The notes: generated by a model from the letters alone, not told the origin. A stretch of 64,000 nt of DNA from an uncultured Gammaproteobacteria bacterium (GCA_964596735.1 CAZQVF010000003.1:42611-106610); one strand, 5' to 3'; shown: positions 11,340-58,450, counted from the first letter of the stretch. Translations and numbers: made by a program.

Positions 11340-12359
11340 AAACTGTCTAATAAATCTTAAATCACCTGAATGAAGCAAGCGAATATCATCAATTTTATGC
11401 TTCATCATTATTAATCTATCCAAGCCCACGCCAAAAGCAAAACCAGTATATTTTCCATGAGCATAACCAGCGTGTTTAAAAACCTCGGGATGAATCATGC
11501 CTGAGCCAAGAATCTCTACCCAGCCGGTCTGGGAACAGACTGGACAGCCCTTTCCTCCACAATTTAAACAAGCGAAATCAATCTCAAAACTAGGCTCGGT
11601 AAAGGGAAAATAGCTTGGCCGTAATCTAATCTTCACCTTTGTTTTAAATAAGGCGTTTAAAAAGGTTTTTAAAGTATAAATTAAATTAGCAACACTGATT
11701 TCCTTGTCCACGGCAAAACCTTCTACTTGATAAATGGTATGTTCATGAGAAGCATCAGTTGCCTCATGGCGGAAACATTTACCAATGACACAAACCTTTA
11801 AAGGTGGTTTTCTTTTCTCCATTACCCTCACCTGCATCGGTGAAGTATGGGTTCTTAATAATTCACCTTTTTTCGATTTGATATAAAAGGTGTCCCACAT
11901 ATCCCGGGCCGGATGACCCTCAGGAATATTTAAAGCTTCAAAATTATAATAATCTGTTTCAAGTTCTGGTCCTTCTAAAACTTCAAAACCCATAGAAGAA
12001 AAAATATCAGCCACCATTTGTTTTCCCTGAGTTAAGGGATGTAAATGTCCAAACTCTATTTTCTTTCCCGGCAAAGTAAAATCCAAAGCCGCACCTTTGG
12101 CTTTGGAACCAGAACTAGATAACTCTCTTTTCTTATTATCAATGGCCTGCTCAATTTCTTGTTTAACCTGATTAGCCGAACTACCAACTCTTGGCTTCTC
12201 ATTATCGGGCAGGTCTTTTAAGCCGCGTAAAACCTTTGTTAATTCTCCGTTTTGCCGACCCAAATATTGGCGCCAGACCTTGTCCAAGTCTGCCCCATTT
12301 TTAACCTGATTAATTTGTTCTAAGGCCTTGCTTTTTAATTGTTTAATTTGCTCAATCAT
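11337..12359 (-). CDS. pheS: Phenylalanine--tRNA ligase alpha subunit.
   Basis: FRHEATDASHEHTIYQVEGF class II aaRS motifs. Confidence 0.9.
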   Translation of the reverse strand: MIEQIKQLKSKALEQINQVKNGADLDKVWRQYLGRQNGELTKVLRGLKDLPDNEKPRVGSSANQVKQEIEQAIDNKKRELSSSGSKAKGAALDFTLPGKKIEFGHLHPLTQGKQMVADIFSSMGFEVLEGPELETDYYNFEALNIPEGHPARDMWDTFYIKSKKGELLRTHTSPMQVRVMEKRKPPLKVCVIGKCFRHEATDASHEHTIYQVEGFAVDKEISVANLIYTLKTFLNALFKTKVKIRLRPSYFPFTEPSFEIDFACLNCGGKGCPVCSQTGWVEILGSGMIHPEVFKHAGYAHGKYTGFAFGVGLDRLIMMKHKIDDIRLLHSGDLRFIRQF

Positions 12360-12745
12360 GCCTTGTACTTTTTACGCGAAGAAAGAAAGAAAAATTCTAA
12401 AAACATTAAAAATAAGAGTAAAAACACACCATTCCACCATCTTAAAATACCTAGATTCTGCAACAAAAATAAACCGACAACTAAAAAACTTAACCAGATT
12501 CCCTGGCGGAAAGACGCTTCTACTTGTTTAAAAACCGGCCCCTTGTTTAAGCGAGTTCGGACAAGAAAGCCAATGATTGCTGCCGTTCCCACAATAGCCA
12601 AGAACAAACTAAAATAAAACAAGACAAAACCAATTAACCCTGTTTCTTTTGGATTAACAAAAAAAATAACAAAAACCCAGGCTAACCAACAAATAATGGT
12701 TAAAATGCTCATTAAATTAAGGTATTTTTTCAAAGTCATAAACAA
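12356..12745 (-). CDS. Hypothetical membrane protein, 129 aa, 3-4 TM.
   Basis: Hydrophobic ORF with a 4-nt overlap onto the pheS start. Confidence 0.4.
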   Translation of the reverse strand: MFMTLKKYLNLMSILTIICWLAWVFVIFFVNPKETGLIGFVLFYFSLFLAIVGTAAIIGFLVRTRLNKGPVFKQVEASFRQGIWLSFLVVGLFLLQNLGILRWWNGVFLLLFLMFLEFFFLSSRKKYKA

Positions 12746-12797: not shown

Positions 12798-15700
12798 TTA
12801 TTCCTGCCGATACTGACAAATATTGTAAAAATCGCAAAACTTGCACATCCGACTAGGCTGAGCAGGAAAATCACCCTTTTTTATCTTCTCAATAGTCTTA
12901 ATAGCGTTTTCTTCTACTTTTTTCAAATCATCATCTTTGCCTAAAAAAGAAATCCTCTCCCCTGATTCTAAATAATAAAAAGTTAATTGGTGAACCGGCT
13001 TGTCAAAAGCCTCATGTAAATGCTGGGCGGCTAATTGATAAAGATACAATTGTTGCTTTTTTTCAAAACCAAGACTTGCTTTGTTCTGGCCGGTTTTGTA
13101 ATCAATAATTTCATATCCCTGATCTGTTTCATCAACCCGGTCAATCACCCCTCTAATTATGTATTTATCTAATTTAAAATTAAACTGCTTTTCCAAATAT
13201 TTCATATTTGGTTTATTCTGAACAAAATCATGATAAAACATTTTCAAAGCTTGTTTGCCTTTTCCCTTATACTTCTCCTGATGATCTTTACTGTCATACC
13301 AGTCCTCAATCCATGACTGCTCATAAATCTTTATCAAGTCATCAAAAGAAAGCTGGTTTTTTGATTGAGGTTTTTTCTCGCCAAATAAATCCCTTTGAAC
13401 CACATCTTTCTGCCCTCGCCACATCTGACAAAAACGATAAAGCGTATTATGCAGGCTTCTGCCAAAACTAAAAACATAACGGCCTTGACGAGGAATTCTT
13501 AAAATAAAACCAAACTTGTATTGTAAGGGACAGGTGTTAAAAGCCATAAACTGGGAAAAACTAAACCTTAAGGGCAGAGCTATGTCTGTCTTTTGTTTTT
13601 CTTCTTGTTTTACTAAGGGCTTGGTTAAAACATCTGTTTTTTCCTCAACTTTAATTGGCTTATCTTTTTTTACCAAACCTAATTCATATAAGAAACGAGA
13701 TGATTTTTTAAGAGTTTTTCCTCCATAATCTTCAGCCGAGGTCAGATAAAGACTGTGTTTGGCCCGGGTTAAAGCAACATAGAAAAGCCGTCTTTCTTCT
13801 TGCAAATGCACATCTCCCTGGGGAATAATTTCTTTAATCAAATCCACAGGTAATTCAATTGGCTCTTTGCGGTCAATACTGGGAAATCTCTTGTCTACTA
13901 AATTAACAATAAAAACATATTTAAATTCCAAGCCCTTGGCACTGTGAATGGTGCTGACTTTAACTGACTCAGGTCCCTGTTCTAATTCTGCATCAATACT
14001 GCCTGTATCTCCGGTACTAATCATTAAATCAATCAAACGAATAAATGCGCCAACTGATTTATCAAAATTAATTGCTTCAAAGTTCTCTATTTTTTTAAAA
14101 AACTGATTTAACCAAAAAACACTTTCGCTGTCCTCTTGATTAGATAAAATTTTTAAATAACCAGTGTCTTGTAAAAAAGCATAAACAACCTTGCTCACAT
14201 TTTCTGTTTTAGCCAGTTCAGTATGCTTATCAATCCAGGATAAAAATAGGTTTAATTGAGTGATTGTTTGCTTGGAAAGCTGAAAAATACTGGTCGCTTT
14301 TTGCATGGCTTCATAAACAGACCATGACTTTTTATTGGCAAAATTAATTAAATGAGACACTTCATTGCTGCTAATCTTTTTATTAAAAATTGGGGAGGTT
14401 AAAACCCGATAAATCGCTGTGCTTTCATGGTAATTATCAAGAAGTTTAAGATAAGCCAAAATATCTAAAATCACTGGTTTGGAAAACAAGCCAGACCGGA
14501 CTAAAAACTGATGAGAAACATTGGCTAGACGCAAAGCCTGAACAAAAAGTTCGGCCTGGTGATTGGCCCTGACTAAAATGGCAAAATCATTCCAACTCGC
14601 TTCTTCGTCTTTTTGCTTAAGCTCAATAATCTTTTTAATCACCGCCCTAGCTTCATCTTCCTGAGTTTTTAAGTGTAAATGCCTAATCTCCCCTTTGTCT
14701 TTTTTCTCTGCCTTTAATTTTTTAATAATATCTTTATCCTGAGCTTCTAGTCTTTCTGGATTGTTTAATTGAATAAAATTATAGGCTAAGTCTAAAATCT
14801 TTTGCTGGGAACGGTAATTCTTAATCAAGACCACCTGCTCTGTTTTGGGATAATCTTTTTTAAACTGCAAGACATTGTTATAAGAAGCGCCGCGAAATTT
14901 ATAAATAGAATTGTGAACAACTATTCCATTAGCCACAAAGTTATGACTTCGTTCTATTTCTAGATCATAAACTGTCAAATTTTTAATTTCTTCTTTAACT
15001 TCAATAACTTGGTCGTAAATCACCCCGTTCCTTTTAGTCGCCACTGGTAGATATAATCCTTGTAAAACATTGCTTGCCGGCATAATCAATGCTTTTTGAA
15101 AAACAATATTTGTTTTTCCAACAGTAAAACCGTTTTCTAAAATTCCTCCAGTCACCTTTTGCAATTTTTCAGCTATCTTGCCTATTTTTTTTATATCTTT
15201 ACTTTCTGCTTTAAAACGATAACCCTTTCTGGCTTTTGTTAAATTAAAACCGGCTTTTCTTAATTTATTAATTGTTCTCTTATCCGAAGTTTCAACAGAG
15301 GCTTGATGACGAATCAATGGATTTGTTAAAAATCCGTCTTTATCATATTTACTTCTATATCGCCTCTTGCACATATCAAAATTAATCTTGATTCTCAATT
15401 TACTACCTCTGTTTACTGCATCTAAAGAGTAATGGTGGGCACTTAAATCTATTTTTAAATCTCTAGCTAGTCTTCTTGCGCCATCTTCTACATTAATCTT
15501 TTTATATAATTTAATCATCCAATCACCTTTTATCATTACTCTGTCTCTCTCCTTAAAACAAGTCGTTTGTATGCCATACTTCAAAGAGTATAAGGTTTCA
15601 TAAAAACGAGCCTCTTCCTCACTTTGACAAGCTTTAATAGCTAGAATTTTATCTGCTGATCGTTCTAATTTTAACCTTACAGCTAAATTATTTGTTGTCC

Positions 15701-16844
15701 CTATTCGCCAACCTACATCATCTCGTCTCATTAAATAAACATAATAGTATTTTTTCTCTCTTGAAACACGGGGCGTAAAGCAAAACATTTTATGATTATC
15801 AGTAACTTGAACCCTGTATCCTTTCTTTGTTTTAAAAGTAAGCATTTTTGCTTTCTTTTTTCTTTTAAAGACTTTATTTACTTTTGAATAACTTAAATAA
15901 CCCTTGCCTACTGCTGTAGCAACTAAAGCGCCCTTTTTTATCTGATCTATCCTCTGAGTACCCCTTTTTGTTTGAACTAAAGTGTTACCAGGCAAACATT
16001 GGTCATCGTCAGAAACAGCGGTCATGTTATTCTTGGGCTGAGCCAGCATCTGCAGTAATTTATACTGGGCCCAGTTAGTGTCTTGAAACTCATCAACTAA
16101 GATATATTTAAACTGCTCTTGGTATTTTTTCAAAATCTGCGGTCTTTTTTCAAAAAGCTTTAAAGTGTAATTTATTAAATCACCAAAGTCCAAGGCATTG
16201 TTTTCTAAAAGCAATTGCTGATAAGTATGATAAGCATTGGCAATTTCTTTTAAACGGCTGGTTTCCTGGTCAAGCAATTCATCTGACATGCTCGTGTCTT
16301 TGTCTAGTTTTAAATTCTCCACATAATCTAAATATTCTTCCGGACTAATTAACTCATCTTTGGCCCGAGAAAAATGTTTAACCAGACTTTGGATAAACTT
16401 AGTCGGATTGCCCAAGGGCCGGTAATAATCCAAGTCAAACTTGTCAAAATTGTCCTGAACTAAAAAGCTTTGTTGGGCCTGATTTAATAATTTAAAATTC
16501 AGAGGCAGGCCAATATCTAAGGCATGCTGTTGCAAGATTCTTTCACAAAAGGAATGAAAAGTGGAAATCCATAAATCAACATAGCCATAAGGAAGCAACT
16601 TATCTATTCTCTCTTCCATTTCCTGAGCCGCTTTATCAGTAAAAGTTAAAGCTAAAACCTGGTCTGTCTTGACCAGATTACTCAAAATCAACCAAGCCAC
16701 CCGCCTGGTAATAACAGTTGTTTTGCCTGTACCGGCTCCGGCAATAATTAATAAAGGGCCTTGTCCATGAGTTACTGCTTTTTTTTGCTCAGAATTAAGC
16801 CCTTTTAAAATTTTATTACCTAATTCTTTTTCTGACATATGCAT
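12798..16844 (-). CDS. UvrD/PcrA-family helicase interrupted by an intein, with a C-terminal Cys-cluster nuclease-like domain.
   Basis: Walker A AGAGTGKTT and DEFQD motif II. An intein is inserted in motif III between DDDQ and SIYKFRGA. The C-terminus has Cys residues (CKFCDFYNIC) resembling the AddB/Cas4-type FeS nuclease cap. Confidence 0.85.
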   Translation of the reverse strand: MHMSEKELGNKILKGLNSEQKKAVTHGQGPLLIIAGAGTGKTTVITRRVAWLILSNLVKTDQVLALTFTDKAAQEMEERIDKLLPYGYVDLWISTFHSFCERILQQHALDIGLPLNFKLLNQAQQSFLVQDNFDKFDLDYYRPLGNPTKFIQSLVKHFSRAKDELISPEEYLDYVENLKLDKDTSMSDELLDQETSRLKEIANAYHTYQQLLLENNALDFGDLINYTLKLFEKRPQILKKYQEQFKYILVDEFQDTNWAQYKLLQMLAQPKNNMTAVSDDDQCLPGNTLVQTKRGTQRIDQIKKGALVATAVGKGYLSYSKVNKVFKRKKKAKMLTFKTKKGYRVQVTDNHKMFCFTPRVSREKKYYYVYLMRRDDVGWRIGTTNNLAVRLKLERSADKILAIKACQSEEEARFYETLYSLKYGIQTTCFKERDRVMIKGDWMIKLYKKINVEDGARRLARDLKIDLSAHHYSLDAVNRGSKLRIKINFDMCKRRYRSKYDKDGFLTNPLIRHQASVETSDKRTINKLRKAGFNLTKARKGYRFKAESKDIKKIGKIAEKLQKVTGGILENGFTVGKTNIVFQKALIMPASNVLQGLYLPVATKRNGVIYDQVIEVKEEIKNLTVYDLEIERSHNFVANGIVVHNSIYKFRGASYNNVLQFKKDYPKTEQVVLIKNYRSQQKILDLAYNFIQLNNPERLEAQDKDIIKKLKAEKKDKGEIRHLHLKTQEDEARAVIKKIIELKQKDEEASWNDFAILVRANHQAELFVQALRLANVSHQFLVRSGLFSKPVILDILAYLKLLDNYHESTAIYRVLTSPIFNKKISSNEVSHLINFANKKSWSVYEAMQKATSIFQLSKQTITQLNLFLSWIDKHTELAKTENVSKVVYAFLQDTGYLKILSNQEDSESVFWLNQFFKKIENFEAINFDKSVGAFIRLIDLMISTGDTGSIDAELEQGPESVKVSTIHSAKGLEFKYVFIVNLVDKRFPSIDRKEPIELPVDLIKEIIPQGDVHLQEERRLFYVALTRAKHSLYLTSAEDYGGKTLKKSSRFLYELGLVKKDKPIKVEEKTDVLTKPLVKQEEKQKTDIALPLRFSFSQFMAFNTCPLQYKFGFILRIPRQGRYVFSFGRSLHNTLYRFCQMWRGQKDVVQRDLFGEKKPQSKNQLSFDDLIKIYEQSWIEDWYDSKDHQEKYKGKGKQALKMFYHDFVQNKPNMKYLEKQFNFKLDKYIIRGVIDRVDETDQGYEIIDYKTGQNKASLGFEKKQQLYLYQLAAQHLHEAFDKPVHQLTFYYLESGERISFLGKDDDLKKVEENAIKTIEKIKKGDFPAQPSRMCKFCDFYNICQYRQE
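14910..15998 (-). mobile_element. Intein, about 363 aa, from Cys at aa 283 to His-Asn at aa 644-645, inside the helicase gene.
   Basis: N-terminal CLPGNTLV (block A), C-terminal HNFVANGIVVHN followed by the +1 Ser (block G). Its size implies an embedded homing endonuclease domain. Confidence 0.75.
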
Positions 16845-58293: not shown

Positions 58294-58368
58294 CGCGGGG
58301 TAGAGCAATGGCAGCTCGCCAGGCCCATAACCTGGAGGTTGTAGGTTCGAATCCTACCCCCGCAACCA
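58294..58368 (+). tRNA. Initiator tRNA-fMet(CAU).
   Basis: C1xA72 mismatch, A11:U24, anticodon loop CCCATAA and T-arm GTAGG-TTCGAAT-CCTAC. CCA is encoded. Confidence 0.75.
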
Positions 58369-58369
58369 T

Positions 58370-58441
58370 GGCAGGATAGCTCAGTGGTAGAGCAGTGGAC
58401 TCATAAGCCACGTGTCGCGGGTTCAATTCCCGCTCCTGCTA
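58370..58441 (+). tRNA. tRNA with CAU anticodon (elongator Met or Ile2/lysidine).
   Basis: Begins 1 nt after the previous tRNA. Anticodon loop CTCATAA and T-arm GCGGG-TTCAATT-CCCGC. Confidence 0.7.
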
Positions 58442-58450
58442 TTTATAAGA

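What the first reader, a model, noticed from the sequence alone, without database searches (positions are those of the whole stretch)
12798..16844. UvrD/PcrA-type helicase split by a ~363-aa intein in helicase motif III and carrying a C-terminal Cys-cluster nuclease-like domain
Seen in sequence: the helicase reads ...AVSDDDQ | CLPGNTLVQTKRG ... HNFVANGIVVHN | SIYKFRGA.... The N-terminal Cys, the terminal His-Asn and the +1 Ser are canonical intein splice junctions. The insert size (14910-15998) suggests a homing endonuclease. The protein is 1348 aa because it also has a C-terminal extension ending CKFCDFYNICQY, reminiscent of AddB/Cas4-type iron-sulfur nuclease domains. This is a helicase-nuclease fusion rather than a plain UvrD.
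Basis: partly seen in the sequence, partly recalled or inferred. Interest (0 to 1): 0.55.

Follow-up and report, generated by a model that had tools for sequence, protein, structure and literature searches.

The report
Helicase-nuclease gene carrying unusual intein
A DNA-repair helicase-nuclease gene of a Patescibacteria-like bacterium is interrupted by a self-splicing intein, and the intein's middle appears to hold a GIY-YIG-like DNA-cutting domain that I could not find described inside an intein.

Summary
There is one 1348-aa ORF (12798-16844, minus strand). A 363-aa intein (14910-15998) splits helicase motif III (DDDQ|C...HN|SIYKFRGA). A C-terminal PD-(D/E)xK nuclease carries a C-x228-C-x2-C-x5-C cysteine cluster. 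Intein HMMs pass their cut-offs and the model has a Hint fold. All 21 closest listed orthologues (64-95% extein identity) lack the insert, while 88 more distant ones carry it at the same site.

The new part is the 235-aa intein core. It is neither LAGLIDADG nor HNH, and it matches nothing in Pfam, PHROGs or PDB sequences. It is conserved in 289 protein clusters and sits at helicase motif III in every host examined. Its topology, invariant Tyr/Arg/Glu residues and convergent weak matches point to a GIY-YIG-like nuclease followed by an unassigned beta-rich domain.

Three results support a mobile endonuclease:
- Occupied alleles encode the +1 Ser as TCN (54/54) and related empty alleles as AGY (5/5).
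- Intein and extein similarities are uncoupled.
- Rare free-standing homologues have lost every splicing residue but keep every putative nuclease residue, and lie between two halves of split phage-like helicase genes.

The intein and the fusion are ordinary. An in-frame GIY-YIG-like intein endonuclease looks undescribed.

The parts
12798..16844 (-). Complete ORF of 1348 aa: precursor of the helicase-nuclease with the intein.
   Evidence: An identical allele (P0001) occurs in other public assemblies.
15999..16844 (-). N-extein (aa 1-282): UvrD/PcrA helicase domain 1A/1B with motif I (AGAGTGKT, aa 35), motif II (DEFQD, aa 251) and the first half of motif III (DDDQ, aa 279-282).
   Evidence: PF00580 covers aa 16-283. 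Motifs located.
15768..15998 (-). Intein N-terminal splicing region (intein aa 1-77): Cys1 (block A) and T66-D-N-H69 (block B).
   Evidence: TIGR01445 scores 38.9 bits against a cut-off of 24.5. These residues are invariant in 82 relatives. Hint fold.
15444..15752 (-). GIY-YIG-like putative nuclease subdomain of the intein (intein aa 83-185). Topology is beta-beta-alpha-beta-alpha followed by two helices. Key residues are Y88, R98, G100, R108, E112 and E134. This copy has Q144 where all relatives have Pro.
   Evidence: No hit in Pfam, PHROGs or PDB sequences. Topology. Residue conservation in 120 divergent representatives. Weak matches converging on GIY-YIG.
15063..15431 (-). Beta-rich subdomain of the intein core with two helices (intein aa 190-312). 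The fold is unassigned. It is inferred to be the DNA-binding module.
   Evidence: Confidently modelled. No recurring Pfam family and no PDB match. Only weak structural hints to the MotA C-terminal domain.
14910..15062 (-). Intein C-terminal splicing region (intein aa 313-363): block F (VYDLEIERSHNF) and block G (VVHN).
   Evidence: TIGR01443 scores 33.6 bits against a cut-off of 15.6. PDB sequence hits to the PhoCDC21-1, Pho RadA and DnaB inteins.
13725..14909 (-). C-extein helicase part (aa 646-1040). It starts with the +1 Ser and the second half of motif III (SIYKFRGA), then motif IV (NYRS, aa 676), motif V (TIHSAKGLEF, aa 965) and motif VI (YVALTRA, aa 1022).
   Evidence: PF13361 covers aa 672-1038. 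Motifs. Best solved relative of the spliced protein is PcrA 1pjr, E=2e-101.
12813..13568 (-). C-terminal PD-(D/E)xK nuclease domain (aa 1093-1344) with motifs GVIDRVD (aa 1232), DYK (aa 1248) and QLYLY (aa 1265), and cysteines C1105, C1334, C1337 and C1343.
   Evidence: PF12705 scores 114 bits against a cut-off of 22. Motifs and cysteines. The four cysteines are conserved in the 82-protein alignment.
15999..16016 (-). 18 nt of host sequence immediately 5' of the insertion point (GTTTCTGACGATGACCAA). It is identical in the nearest empty allele.
   Evidence: Consensus of 55 occupied alleles.
14892..14909 (-). 18 nt of host sequence immediately 3' of the insertion point (TCTATTTATAAATTTCGC). The first 6 nt differ at 5 positions from the nearest empty allele (AGTGTG).

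Best explanation
The gene encodes a 1348-aa precursor. A class-1 intein (C283...N645) excises itself and joins Q282 to S646. That restores helicase motif III (DDDQSIYKFRGA) and yields a 985-aa single-chain enzyme. The enzyme has a PcrA/UvrD-like SF1 motor fused to a RecB/AddB/Cas4-type nuclease that is predicted to hold a 4Fe-4S cluster on C1105, C1334, C1337 and C1343. It probably works in DNA repair or end processing.

The excised 363-aa intein is a Hint splicing domain with a 235-aa core inserted in it. The core consists of a divergent GIY-YIG-like nuclease (Tyr88, Arg108, Glu134) and a beta-rich domain. I infer that the core is a homing endonuclease. It would recognise the uninterrupted motif III coding sequence (about GAYGAYGAYCAR|TCNATYTAY) of UvrD-type helicase genes and cut it, and recombinational repair would then copy the intein in.

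The window's lineage appears to have gained the intein horizontally, with a short stretch of donor flank (TCT ATT) coming in alongside it.

Shown here: the anatomy, the family memberships by HMM, the Hint fold, the existence of empty orthologous sites, conservation of the core, and restriction to one insertion site.

Inferred: that splicing occurs, that the core cuts DNA, the GIY-YIG ancestry, the target sequence, and iron-sulfur binding.
For: INTEIN
- HMMs pass their cut-offs.
- All splicing residues are present and invariant.
- The model has pLDDT 94 and gives TM 0.84 to the Mtu RecA mini-intein and E=5e-8 to the TliVMA intein.
- Excision in silico restores the full PF00580 match.

EMPTY SITES AND GAIN
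- All 21 listed homologues with at least 64% extein identity lack the insert. All 88 occupied homologues have at most 57% extein identity.
- L001 is an empty orthologue in the same cdd-tatD-helicase-127aa-pheS-pheT neighbourhood, 91.7% identical at nucleotide level, and the insertion is precise.
- The nearest intein is 73% identical while its extein is only 54% identical.
- Intein and extein identities are uncorrelated (rho 0.15).

CORE DOMAIN
- It occurs in 289 clusters at 50% identity. It lies between intein splicing blocks in the helicase-borne copies, apart from gene fragments and four free-standing forms.
- It sits at UvrD-helicase profile position about 250-252 in every host tested. This holds even in helicases that also carry a LAGLIDADG intein elsewhere.
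- Of 120 divergent representatives, Y88 is kept in 118, R98 in 119, G100 in 120 and E134 in 120.

GIY-YIG AFFINITY
- The topology is beta-beta-alpha-beta-alpha.
- PF01541 is the only Pfam family that recurs among 26 divergent members (4 of 26).
- PDB entry 1zg2 turns up in both the sequence-profile search and the structure search. From memory it is a GIY-YIG protein. Slx1 also appears in the structure search.
- The viral structure library returns many proteins named GIY-YIG, intron endonuclease or T5orf172 at probability 0.9-1.0.
- hhalign against the YhbQ family aligns Y88, G100, R108 and E112 onto the catalytic Tyr, Gly, Arg and His (pairwise E=1e-4, probability 55%).

DNA-LEVEL SIGNATURE
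- The +1 Ser codon is TCN in 54 of 54 occupied alleles and AGY in 5 of 5 empty alleles. AGY accounts for 38% of Ser codons in this genome.

FREE-STANDING HOMOLOGUES
- They have lost Cys1, the block B, F and G residues, but keep all putative nuclease residues.
- They lie between the N- and C-terminal halves of split UvrD-type helicase genes in phage-like contigs, with the break just upstream of motif III.

NUCLEASE AND MOTOR
- PF12705 scores 114 bits, and the motifs and the four cysteines are present.
- PcrA is the closest solved motor, E=2e-101.
Against: - No individual match to GIY-YIG is statistically significant. The window's own copy has no PF01541 hit even at E<=10. The best PDB structural E-value is 0.19. 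hhalign probability is only 55% over 32 columns.
- The second Tyr of the classical YIG motif is an Arg here, and the His is a Glu.
- An AP2-type DNA-binding domain scored about as well as 1zg2 in the profile search (E 0.6 against 0.8).
- This copy alone has Q144 where 88 close and 120 distant relatives all have Pro, so its nuclease might be impaired.
- The five AGY empty alleles belong to one clade and are not independent observations.
- Intein GC content follows host GC content (0.28-0.70), so much of the intein's history is long vertical residence.
- No close relatives were found in GenBank phages or IMG/VR.
- Nothing here demonstrates splicing, DNA cleavage or Fe-S binding.
Confidence: 0.72

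Rival explanations
1. The insert is a real intein, but its core is not a nuclease. It would be a DNA-binding or purely structural domain, for example AP2-like, and the intein would be an immobile, vertically inherited passenger that is occasionally lost.
For: No significant match to any nuclease family. An AP2/ERF domain (WRI1) was the top sub-threshold profile hit, E 0.6. The YIG tyrosine is missing. Intein GC content has converged on host GC content.
Against: The invariant Tyr/Arg/Glu triad has GIY-YIG spacing, and the topology is beta-beta-alpha-beta-alpha, not the beta-beta-beta-alpha of AP2. GIY-YIG is the only family that recurs across methods. The window's gene is the only occupied allele in its clade among the listed hits, and its intein is more similar to foreign inteins than the exteins are to each other. 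The serine codon family at +1 splits perfectly by occupancy. Free-standing copies sit in phage-like helicase genes, which is what mobile endonuclease genes do.
Confidence: 0.15
2. The intein is kept mainly as a post-translational switch. Splicing, and therefore helicase activity, would be conditional on redox state, DNA damage or substrate, and the conserved core would serve that regulation rather than homing.
For: The intein sits inside a catalytic motif, so the precursor must be inactive. The element is conserved across phyla and over long times. Published work argues that intein clustering in replication and repair ATPases may be functional (PMC4760082).
Against: The closest relatives do without the intein. 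Free-standing derivatives that cannot splice still keep the core residues. This idea does not explain the TCN/AGY split. It is compatible with the best explanation rather than a replacement for it.
Confidence: 0.1
3. The insert is an ordinary lineage-specific domain, or the gene is a decaying pseudogene, and not a functional intein-bearing gene.
For: None found. There is only the single unusual P144Q substitution.
Against: The 1348-codon frame is intact. All splicing, helicase and nuclease motifs are intact. This copy departs from only 2 of 92 highly conserved intein positions, which equals the family median. The insert is absent from the orthologues.
Confidence: 0.02

Closest known systems
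Class-1 inteins in bacterial UvrD helicases and other replication and repair ATPases (16 UvrD inteins are listed in the survey PMC4760082)
   Same: Hint splicing domain with Cys1, TxxH, terminal His-Asn and a +1 Ser. Insertion inside a catalytic ATPase motif. Patchy distribution among orthologues.
   Different: The host phyla here are mainly Patescibacteria, plus Rokubacteria, Omnitrophota and others. None of these is among the phyla that survey lists for UvrD inteins. The endonuclease region is neither LAGLIDADG nor HNH.
GIY-YIG homing endonucleases (I-TevI, I-BmoI, Seg proteins) and small GIY-YIG proteins (YhbQ/UPF0213, Slx1)
   Same: Beta-beta-alpha-beta-alpha core. Invariant Tyr in the first strand, Gly ending the second strand, Arg 8 residues later, and an invariant Glu in the second helix. 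A separate downstream DNA-binding module. Association with mobile elements.
   Different: It does not reach the Pfam threshold. The YIG Tyr is replaced by Arg98, preceded by an aromatic residue, and the His is replaced by Glu112. It is embedded in frame in an intein. A 2006 survey stated that GIY-YIG domains had never been found in inteins (PMC1564403).
AceL NrdHF split intein with an intervening free-standing GIY-YIG endonuclease gene (PMC7891396), and the fractured genes with Vsr-like endonucleases of Dassa et al. 2009 (summarised in PMC3384342)
   Same: An intein associated with a homing endonuclease that is neither LAGLIDADG nor HNH. Also similar to the split-helicase loci L087 and L089, where an endonuclease gene lies between the two gene halves.
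   Different: In those cases the endonuclease is a separate gene between two split-intein halves that still trans-splice. In the window the nuclease is in frame inside a contiguous intein. In L087 and L089 the whole intein-like protein is free-standing and has lost its splicing residues.
PI-SceI and HO endonuclease (the second is a free-standing endonuclease derived from an intein; PMC3384342)
   Same: A Hint domain kept together with the nuclease. A free-standing relative that no longer splices.
   Different: Those are LAGLIDADG enzymes from yeast.
AddAB, RecBCD and AdnAB helicase-nucleases, and Cas4/AddB iron-sulfur nucleases
   Same: A UvrD-like SF1 motor followed by a RecB-family PD-(D/E)xK nuclease. 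The C-x(n)-C-x2-C-x5-C cysteine pattern is the one I recall for AddB and Cas4.
   Different: It scores far below the AddA, RecB and Cas4 family cut-offs. The motor is much closer to PcrA/UvrD (2e-101) than to AddA (4e-40) or AdnB (1e-38). No partner subunit is encoded in the window. The cluster-type nuclease sits on an active motor subunit.

Membership tests
Intein (class 1, Hint superfamily) | Nucleophile (Cys or Ser) as first residue, and block B TxxH | tested here: met
   C283 is intein residue 1. T66-D-N-H69 is present. All are invariant in 82 relatives.
Intein (class 1, Hint superfamily) | Blocks F and G ending in His-Asn, followed by a +1 Ser, Thr or Cys | tested here: met
   VYDLEIERSHNFVANGIVVHN|S. 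D345, H362 and N363 are invariant.
Intein (class 1, Hint superfamily) | Curated HMMs pass their cut-offs, and the fold is Hint | tested here: met
   PF14890 scores 70.4 against 35.8, TIGR01445 38.9 against 24.5, and TIGR01443 33.6 against 15.6. The model has pLDDT 94 and TM 0.81-0.84 to mini-inteins.
Intein (class 1, Hint superfamily) | Removal restores a continuous host protein, and orthologues without the insert exist | tested here: met
   PF00580 becomes full-length on removal. There are 21 empty homologues. L001 shares the gene neighbourhood and shows a precise empty site.
Intein (class 1, Hint superfamily) | Protein splicing actually takes place | not testable with these tools
   Needs expression and mass analysis.
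GIY-YIG nuclease superfamily | Significant match to the family profile (PF01541) or to solved members | tested here: not met
   The window copy has no hit at E<=10. The best of 26 relatives reaches E=0.045. The profile search gives 1zg2 at E=0.8. The best PDB Foldseek E-value is 0.19.
GIY-YIG nuclease superfamily | Beta-beta-alpha-beta-alpha core fold resembling known members | tested here: inconclusive
   The topology matches. The viral library returns many named GIY-YIG and T5orf172 proteins at probability 0.9-1.0, but at E 0.016-0.1. Slx1 and 1zg2 appear at E 0.45-0.97. hhalign probability is 55%.
GIY-YIG nuclease superfamily | Catalytic Tyr (GIY), Arg and metal-binding Glu | tested here: met
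   Y88 is kept in 118 of 120, R108 in 96 of 120 (a further 8 have Lys), and E134 in 120 of 120. The spacing equals that of I-TevI and YhbQ.
GIY-YIG nuclease superfamily | Second Tyr (YIG) and the conserved His or Tyr after the Arg | tested here: not met
   Arg98 (119 of 120) takes the place of the YIG Tyr. Glu, Gln or Asn at position 112 takes the place of the His.
GIY-YIG nuclease superfamily | Endonuclease activity | not testable with these tools
   Needs a cleavage assay.
LAGLIDADG or HNH intein endonucleases | Match to the LAGLIDADG or HNH profiles | tested here: not met
   No such family appears even at E<=10 for the core or either half. As a positive control, the same scan finds LAGLIDADG_3 in the other intein of the double-intein helicases P0161, P0165 and P0219.
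UvrD/PcrA/Rep SF1A helicases | Helicase motifs I to VI and both Pfam helicase domains | tested here: met
   Motifs located. For the spliced protein, PF00580 scores 282.6 bits and PF13361 169 bits. PcrA 1pjr matches at E=2e-101 over aa 8-692.
UvrD/PcrA/Rep SF1A helicases | Orthology with PcrA, UvrD or Rep (NCBIfam equivalog cut-offs) | tested here: not met
   PcrA scores 474 against 911, Rep 390 against 951 and UvrD 349 against 1144.
AddA / RecB / AdnAB helicase-nuclease subunits | Equivalog score and a partner subunit | tested here: not met
   addA scores 209 against 708 and recB 130 against 696. The other long ORFs in the window are PheT, DnaK, TopA and LepA.
RecB/AddB/Cas4-type PD-(D/E)xK nuclease with Fe-S cluster | PD-(D/E)xK profile match with catalytic D, (D/E)xK and QxxxY | tested here: met
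   PF12705 scores 114 bits against 22. GVIDRVD is at 1232, DYK at 1248 and QLYLY at 1265.
RecB/AddB/Cas4-type PD-(D/E)xK nuclease with Fe-S cluster | Four cysteines in the pattern C...CxxCxxxxxC | tested here: met
   C1105, C1334, C1337 and C1343, all conserved in the family alignment.
RecB/AddB/Cas4-type PD-(D/E)xK nuclease with Fe-S cluster | Cas4 proper (TIGR00372 cut-off), and actual Fe-S binding | tested here: not met
   cas4 scores 53.4 against 65. Fe-S binding itself cannot be tested with these tools.

The most novel reading that the evidence does not exclude
The intein belongs to a large, undescribed family of intein-borne homing endonucleases. The catalytic domain would be a divergent GIY-YIG derivative (Tyr-Arg-Glu kept, the YIG Tyr replaced by Arg, the His replaced by Glu) joined to a new beta-rich DNA-binding domain. 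The family would be specialised on a single target, the motif III coding sequence of SF1 UvrD-type helicase genes. It would have spread across bacterial phyla, and it would have given rise to free-standing, non-splicing endonuclease genes that break phage helicase genes into two pieces.
Probability: 0.5. Interest if true: 0.72.

Novelty: new variant of a known kind. Interest (0 to 1): 0.6.

Why it matters
According to the literature I could search, intein-encoded endonucleases are almost all LAGLIDADG, with a few HNH and Vsr-like cases. A 2006 survey stated that GIY-YIG enzymes were unknown in inteins.

An in-frame GIY-YIG-like nuclease present in hundreds of protein clusters would do four things:
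- It would add a class of intein homing endonuclease.
- It would show another independent marriage of a Hint domain with a nuclease.
- It would provide a natural series running from intein to free-standing endonuclease to fractured gene. That series bears on how inteins and homing genes exchange parts.
- It could supply new compact site-specific nucleases.

It also flags about 235 residues in many proteins, mostly from Patescibacteria, that current domain libraries leave unannotated.

For the organism itself the practical message is modest. The gene is an intact helicase-nuclease whose activity depends on splicing.

Tried and rejected
- I scanned the intein core and both halves against Pfam at E<=10 and against PHROGs. 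No LAGLIDADG, HNH or any other family appeared.
- A PDB sequence search with the whole intein hit only the splicing blocks.
- Foldseek with the whole intein model was swamped by Hint domains, so I re-modelled the core alone.
- Foldseek of the core against the PDB gave nothing significant.
- The profile of the second subdomain gave no recurring Pfam family and no PDB hit, so it remains unassigned.
- An AP2-like reading of the first subdomain came up once at E 0.6. I set it aside because the topology and the invariant residues fit GIY-YIG better and no other method returned AP2.
- I looked for phage carriers of the close subfamily. tblastn against 50,697 GenBank phages found nothing, and an IMG/VR scan confirmed no relative.
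- A genome scan with the very divergent alignment A3 failed for lack of a conserved stretch, so I repeated it with the closer alignment A5.
- Source names for distant representatives were uninformative, because the records are metagenomic and unnamed.
- I looked for an AddB- or AdnA-like partner gene in the window and found none.
- I considered that this copy might be decaying. I rejected that because it departs from consensus at only 2 of 92 conserved positions, which is the family median.

Full report
OBSERVATION

The window carries a single uninterrupted ORF on the minus strand at 12798-16844 (1348 aa). The insert is protein residues 283-645, at window 15998-14910, and is 363 aa long. The base composition of the insert (GC about 0.32) does not stand out from the rest of the gene.

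WHAT THE PROTEIN IS

- Pfam finds UvrD-helicase (aa 16-283), Intein_splicing, UvrD_C (aa 672-1038) and PDDEXK_1 (aa 1093-1344, 114 bits). NCBIfam's intein N- and C-terminal models both pass their cut-offs.
- Deleting residues 283-645 in silico gives a 985-aa protein in which the UvrD-helicase profile is matched end to end.
- All six SF1 motifs are intact. The intein lies between the Gln and the Ser of motif III, DDDQ|SIYKFRGA.
- The spliced protein is closest to PcrA/UvrD among solved structures (E=2e-101), and much further from AddA (4e-40) and AdnB (1e-38).
- The C-terminal domain has the RecB-family motifs GVIDRVD, DYK and QLYLY, and four conserved cysteines (C1105, C1334, C1337, C1343) in the pattern I recall for AddB and Cas4.
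- It scores below the family cut-offs for AddA, RecB and Cas4, and no partner subunit is encoded nearby.
- It is best described as a stand-alone PcrA-like helicase fused to an iron-sulfur-type PD-(D/E)xK nuclease. All of the 120 best hits listed share this fusion.

THE INTEIN

- Cys1, T66-x-x-H69, D345, H362-N363 and the +1 Ser are present and invariant in an 82-sequence alignment.
- An AlphaFold2 model built on that alignment is confident (pLDDT 94, pTM 0.90).
- The model matches solved inteins: TliVMA at E=5e-8, and mini-inteins such as Mtu RecA at TM 0.84.
- The closest orthologues lack the insert. Among the 120 best database hits, I could split 109 into intein and extein parts. All 21 with at least 64% extein identity are empty. 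All 88 occupied ones are at most 57% identical in the extein.
- One empty orthologue, L001, lies in the same gene neighbourhood (cytidine deaminase, TatD, helicase, 127-aa protein, PheS, PheT). It is 91.7% identical at nucleotide level, and the insertion is exact to the base.

THE INTEIN CORE

Residues about 78-312 of the intein match nothing in Pfam (even at E<=10), in PHROGs or in PDB sequences. In particular there is no LAGLIDADG or HNH match. Yet the core is as conserved as the splicing blocks: mean identity is 53%, against 54% and 57% for the N- and C-terminal splicing regions.

An exhaustive HMMER search of 1.84 billion representative proteins found the core in 289 clusters. In the helicase-borne copies it lies between intein splicing blocks, and nearly all hosts are UvrD-like helicases, with or without the nuclease tail. 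The exceptions are gene fragments and four free-standing proteins described below. Cases where the core lies further along the protein are helicases with two inteins. One is a LAGLIDADG intein near motif I. The other is this intein, again ending the UvrD-helicase profile at position about 250-252. The family is thus tied to one insertion site.

FOLD OF THE CORE

Both models give beta(85-92)-beta(96-102)-alpha(105-112)-beta(117-124)-alpha(127-141), then two helices, then a beta-rich subdomain with two helices (aa about 195-307). Across 120 representatives that are no more than 50% identical to one another, Y88, M90, R98, G100, E134 and P144 are essentially invariant, and R108 and E112 are mostly conserved.

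The spacing Y88...G100...R108...E112...E134 mirrors the GIY-YIG catalytic layout. Five independent weak signals agree with that reading:
- PF01541 is the only Pfam family recurring among 26 divergent members (4 of 26). One further member hits T5orf172, which I recall belongs to the same clan.
- A profile search of PDB sequences returns 1zg2 at E 0.8. From memory this is a GIY-YIG protein.
- Foldseek against the PDB returns the same 1zg2, and Slx1, as local matches.
- Foldseek against predicted viral structures first returns three long viral proteins that seem to carry the same core. It then returns a long run of proteins named GIY-YIG, intron-associated endonuclease or T5orf172, at probability 0.9-1.0.
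- hhalign against a YhbQ-family alignment puts Y88, G100, R108 and E112 on the catalytic Tyr, Gly, Arg and His (pairwise E=1e-4, probability 55%).

None of these is significant alone. The YIG tyrosine is an Arg here and the His is a Glu. I therefore call the domain GIY-YIG-like, at about 65-70% confidence, and do not file it as a family member.

The second subdomain has no detectable relatives. Its role as the DNA-binding module is an inference.

EVIDENCE THAT THE ELEMENT IS, OR RECENTLY WAS, MOBILE

(a) The window's gene is the only occupied allele in its clade among the listed hits. Its nearest intein is 73% identical while the corresponding exteins are 54% identical. Intein and extein identities are uncorrelated (Spearman 0.15).

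(b) The close subfamily occurs in at least 97 species-representative genomes. Most are Patescibacteria, but it also occurs in Rokubacteria, Omnitrophota, Margulisiibacteriota, Saganbacteria, Aerophobetes and others. Intein GC content ranges from 0.28 to 0.70 following the host, which also implies long residence.

(c) At the junction, the 18 nt upstream are identical between the window and L001. Five of the first six nt downstream differ (TCT ATT against AGT GTG), while the gene as a whole is 8% divergent. Across genomes, 54 of 54 occupied alleles with Ser at +1 use TCN. All five related empty alleles use AGT or AGC. AGY makes up 38% of Ser codons in this genome. Both codon families encode Ser, so the constraint acts on DNA. 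Either the flank was co-converted with the intein, or the endonuclease discriminates between the two sequences. The five empty alleles form one clade, so this is suggestive and not decisive.

(d) Four proteins of 362-380 aa start with Met and align with the intein end to end. They have lost every splicing residue (Cys1, the block B Thr and His, the block F Asp and His, the terminal His-Asn) but keep Y88, R98, G100, R108, E112, E134, Y141 and P144. Two of them were located on contigs with phage-type genes (Dam methylase, dCTP deaminase, sliding clamp, SSB, ThyX). There they lie between separate ORFs for the N- and C-terminal halves of a UvrD-type helicase. The break is a few residues upstream of motif III, and the same three-part arrangement is seen in two loci whose middle proteins are only about 40% identical. 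This shows that the core is kept by selection independently of splicing, and that it stays associated with the same region of the same gene family. Both points are what one expects of a site-specific homing endonuclease.

STATE OF THIS COPY

It departs from only 2 of 92 highly conserved intein positions, which is the family median. One of the two is a unique Pro144-to-Gln change next to the putative active-site helix. Whether the nuclease of this particular copy is active is open.

COMPARISON WITH THE LITERATURE

- Inteins in bacterial UvrD are known: 16 cases, in other phyla (PMC4760082).
- A 2006 survey states that GIY-YIG domains had not been found in inteins (PMC1564403).
- One split intein has a separate GIY-YIG gene lying between its halves (PMC7891396).
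- I found no report of an in-frame GIY-YIG-like domain in a contiguous intein, nor of inteins in Candidate Phyla Radiation bacteria. The searchable library excludes most subscription journals, so this absence is not proof.

VERDICT

The intein's endonuclease region is the interesting part. It is a large, unannotated, single-site family with a probable GIY-YIG-derived nuclease and free-standing descendants. That makes it a new variant of a known kind.

Noticed in passing
window 14892-14909 and 15999-16016; loci L001, L083-L086 (empty sites); L005-L082 (occupied sites): The codon family of the +1 serine splits perfectly by occupancy. It is TCN in 54 of 54 occupied alleles and AGT or AGC in 5 of 5 related empty alleles, while AGY makes up 38% of Ser codons in this genome. 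The window differs from its nearest empty allele at 5 of the 6 nt immediately 3' of the junction.
   Followed up: partly
L087 6540-10531; L088 2326-6317; L089 1290-5220: In phage-like contigs, a UvrD-type helicase is encoded as two separate ORFs, broken just upstream of motif III. Between them lies a free-standing 378-380-aa homologue of the whole intein. It has lost all splicing residues but keeps all putative nuclease residues.
   Followed up: partly
window 15567-15569 (intein residue 144, protein residue 426): This copy has Gln where 88 of 88 close and 120 of 120 distant relatives have Pro (YGIQT against YGIPT). It is the only unusual substitution in an otherwise typical copy, and it might affect nuclease activity.
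   Followed up: partly
proteins P0161, P0165 and P0219: Some UvrD-type helicases carry two inteins: a LAGLIDADG intein near motif I, and the GIY-YIG-like intein at motif III.
   Followed up: partly
L089 7124-11185: The same phage-like contig encodes a 1353-aa N6/N4 DNA methyltransferase interrupted by a LAGLIDADG intein. Separately, a viral protein annotated as an adenine-specific DNA methyltransferase (A0A8S5TZY8) matched part of the core structure (126 columns, rmsd 2.7). That hints at a second host protein family for the core.
   Followed up: no
window 12356-12745 (minus strand): A 129-aa hydrophobic ORF between the helicase gene and pheS has no Pfam match. A gene of 127 aa is called at the same position in three related loci (L001, L084, L085), so it is probably a real small membrane protein of unknown function.
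   Followed up: no
loci L035, L040, L070 and L073 (Rokubacteria): Inteins of this family in genomes of about 70% GC themselves have a GC content of 0.66-0.70, against 0.28-0.45 in Patescibacteria. Their composition has fully converged on the host despite 50-55% protein identity to the window's intein.
   Followed up: no
window 58294-58442: Two tRNA-Met (CAT) genes lie directly adjacent to each other.
   Followed up: no
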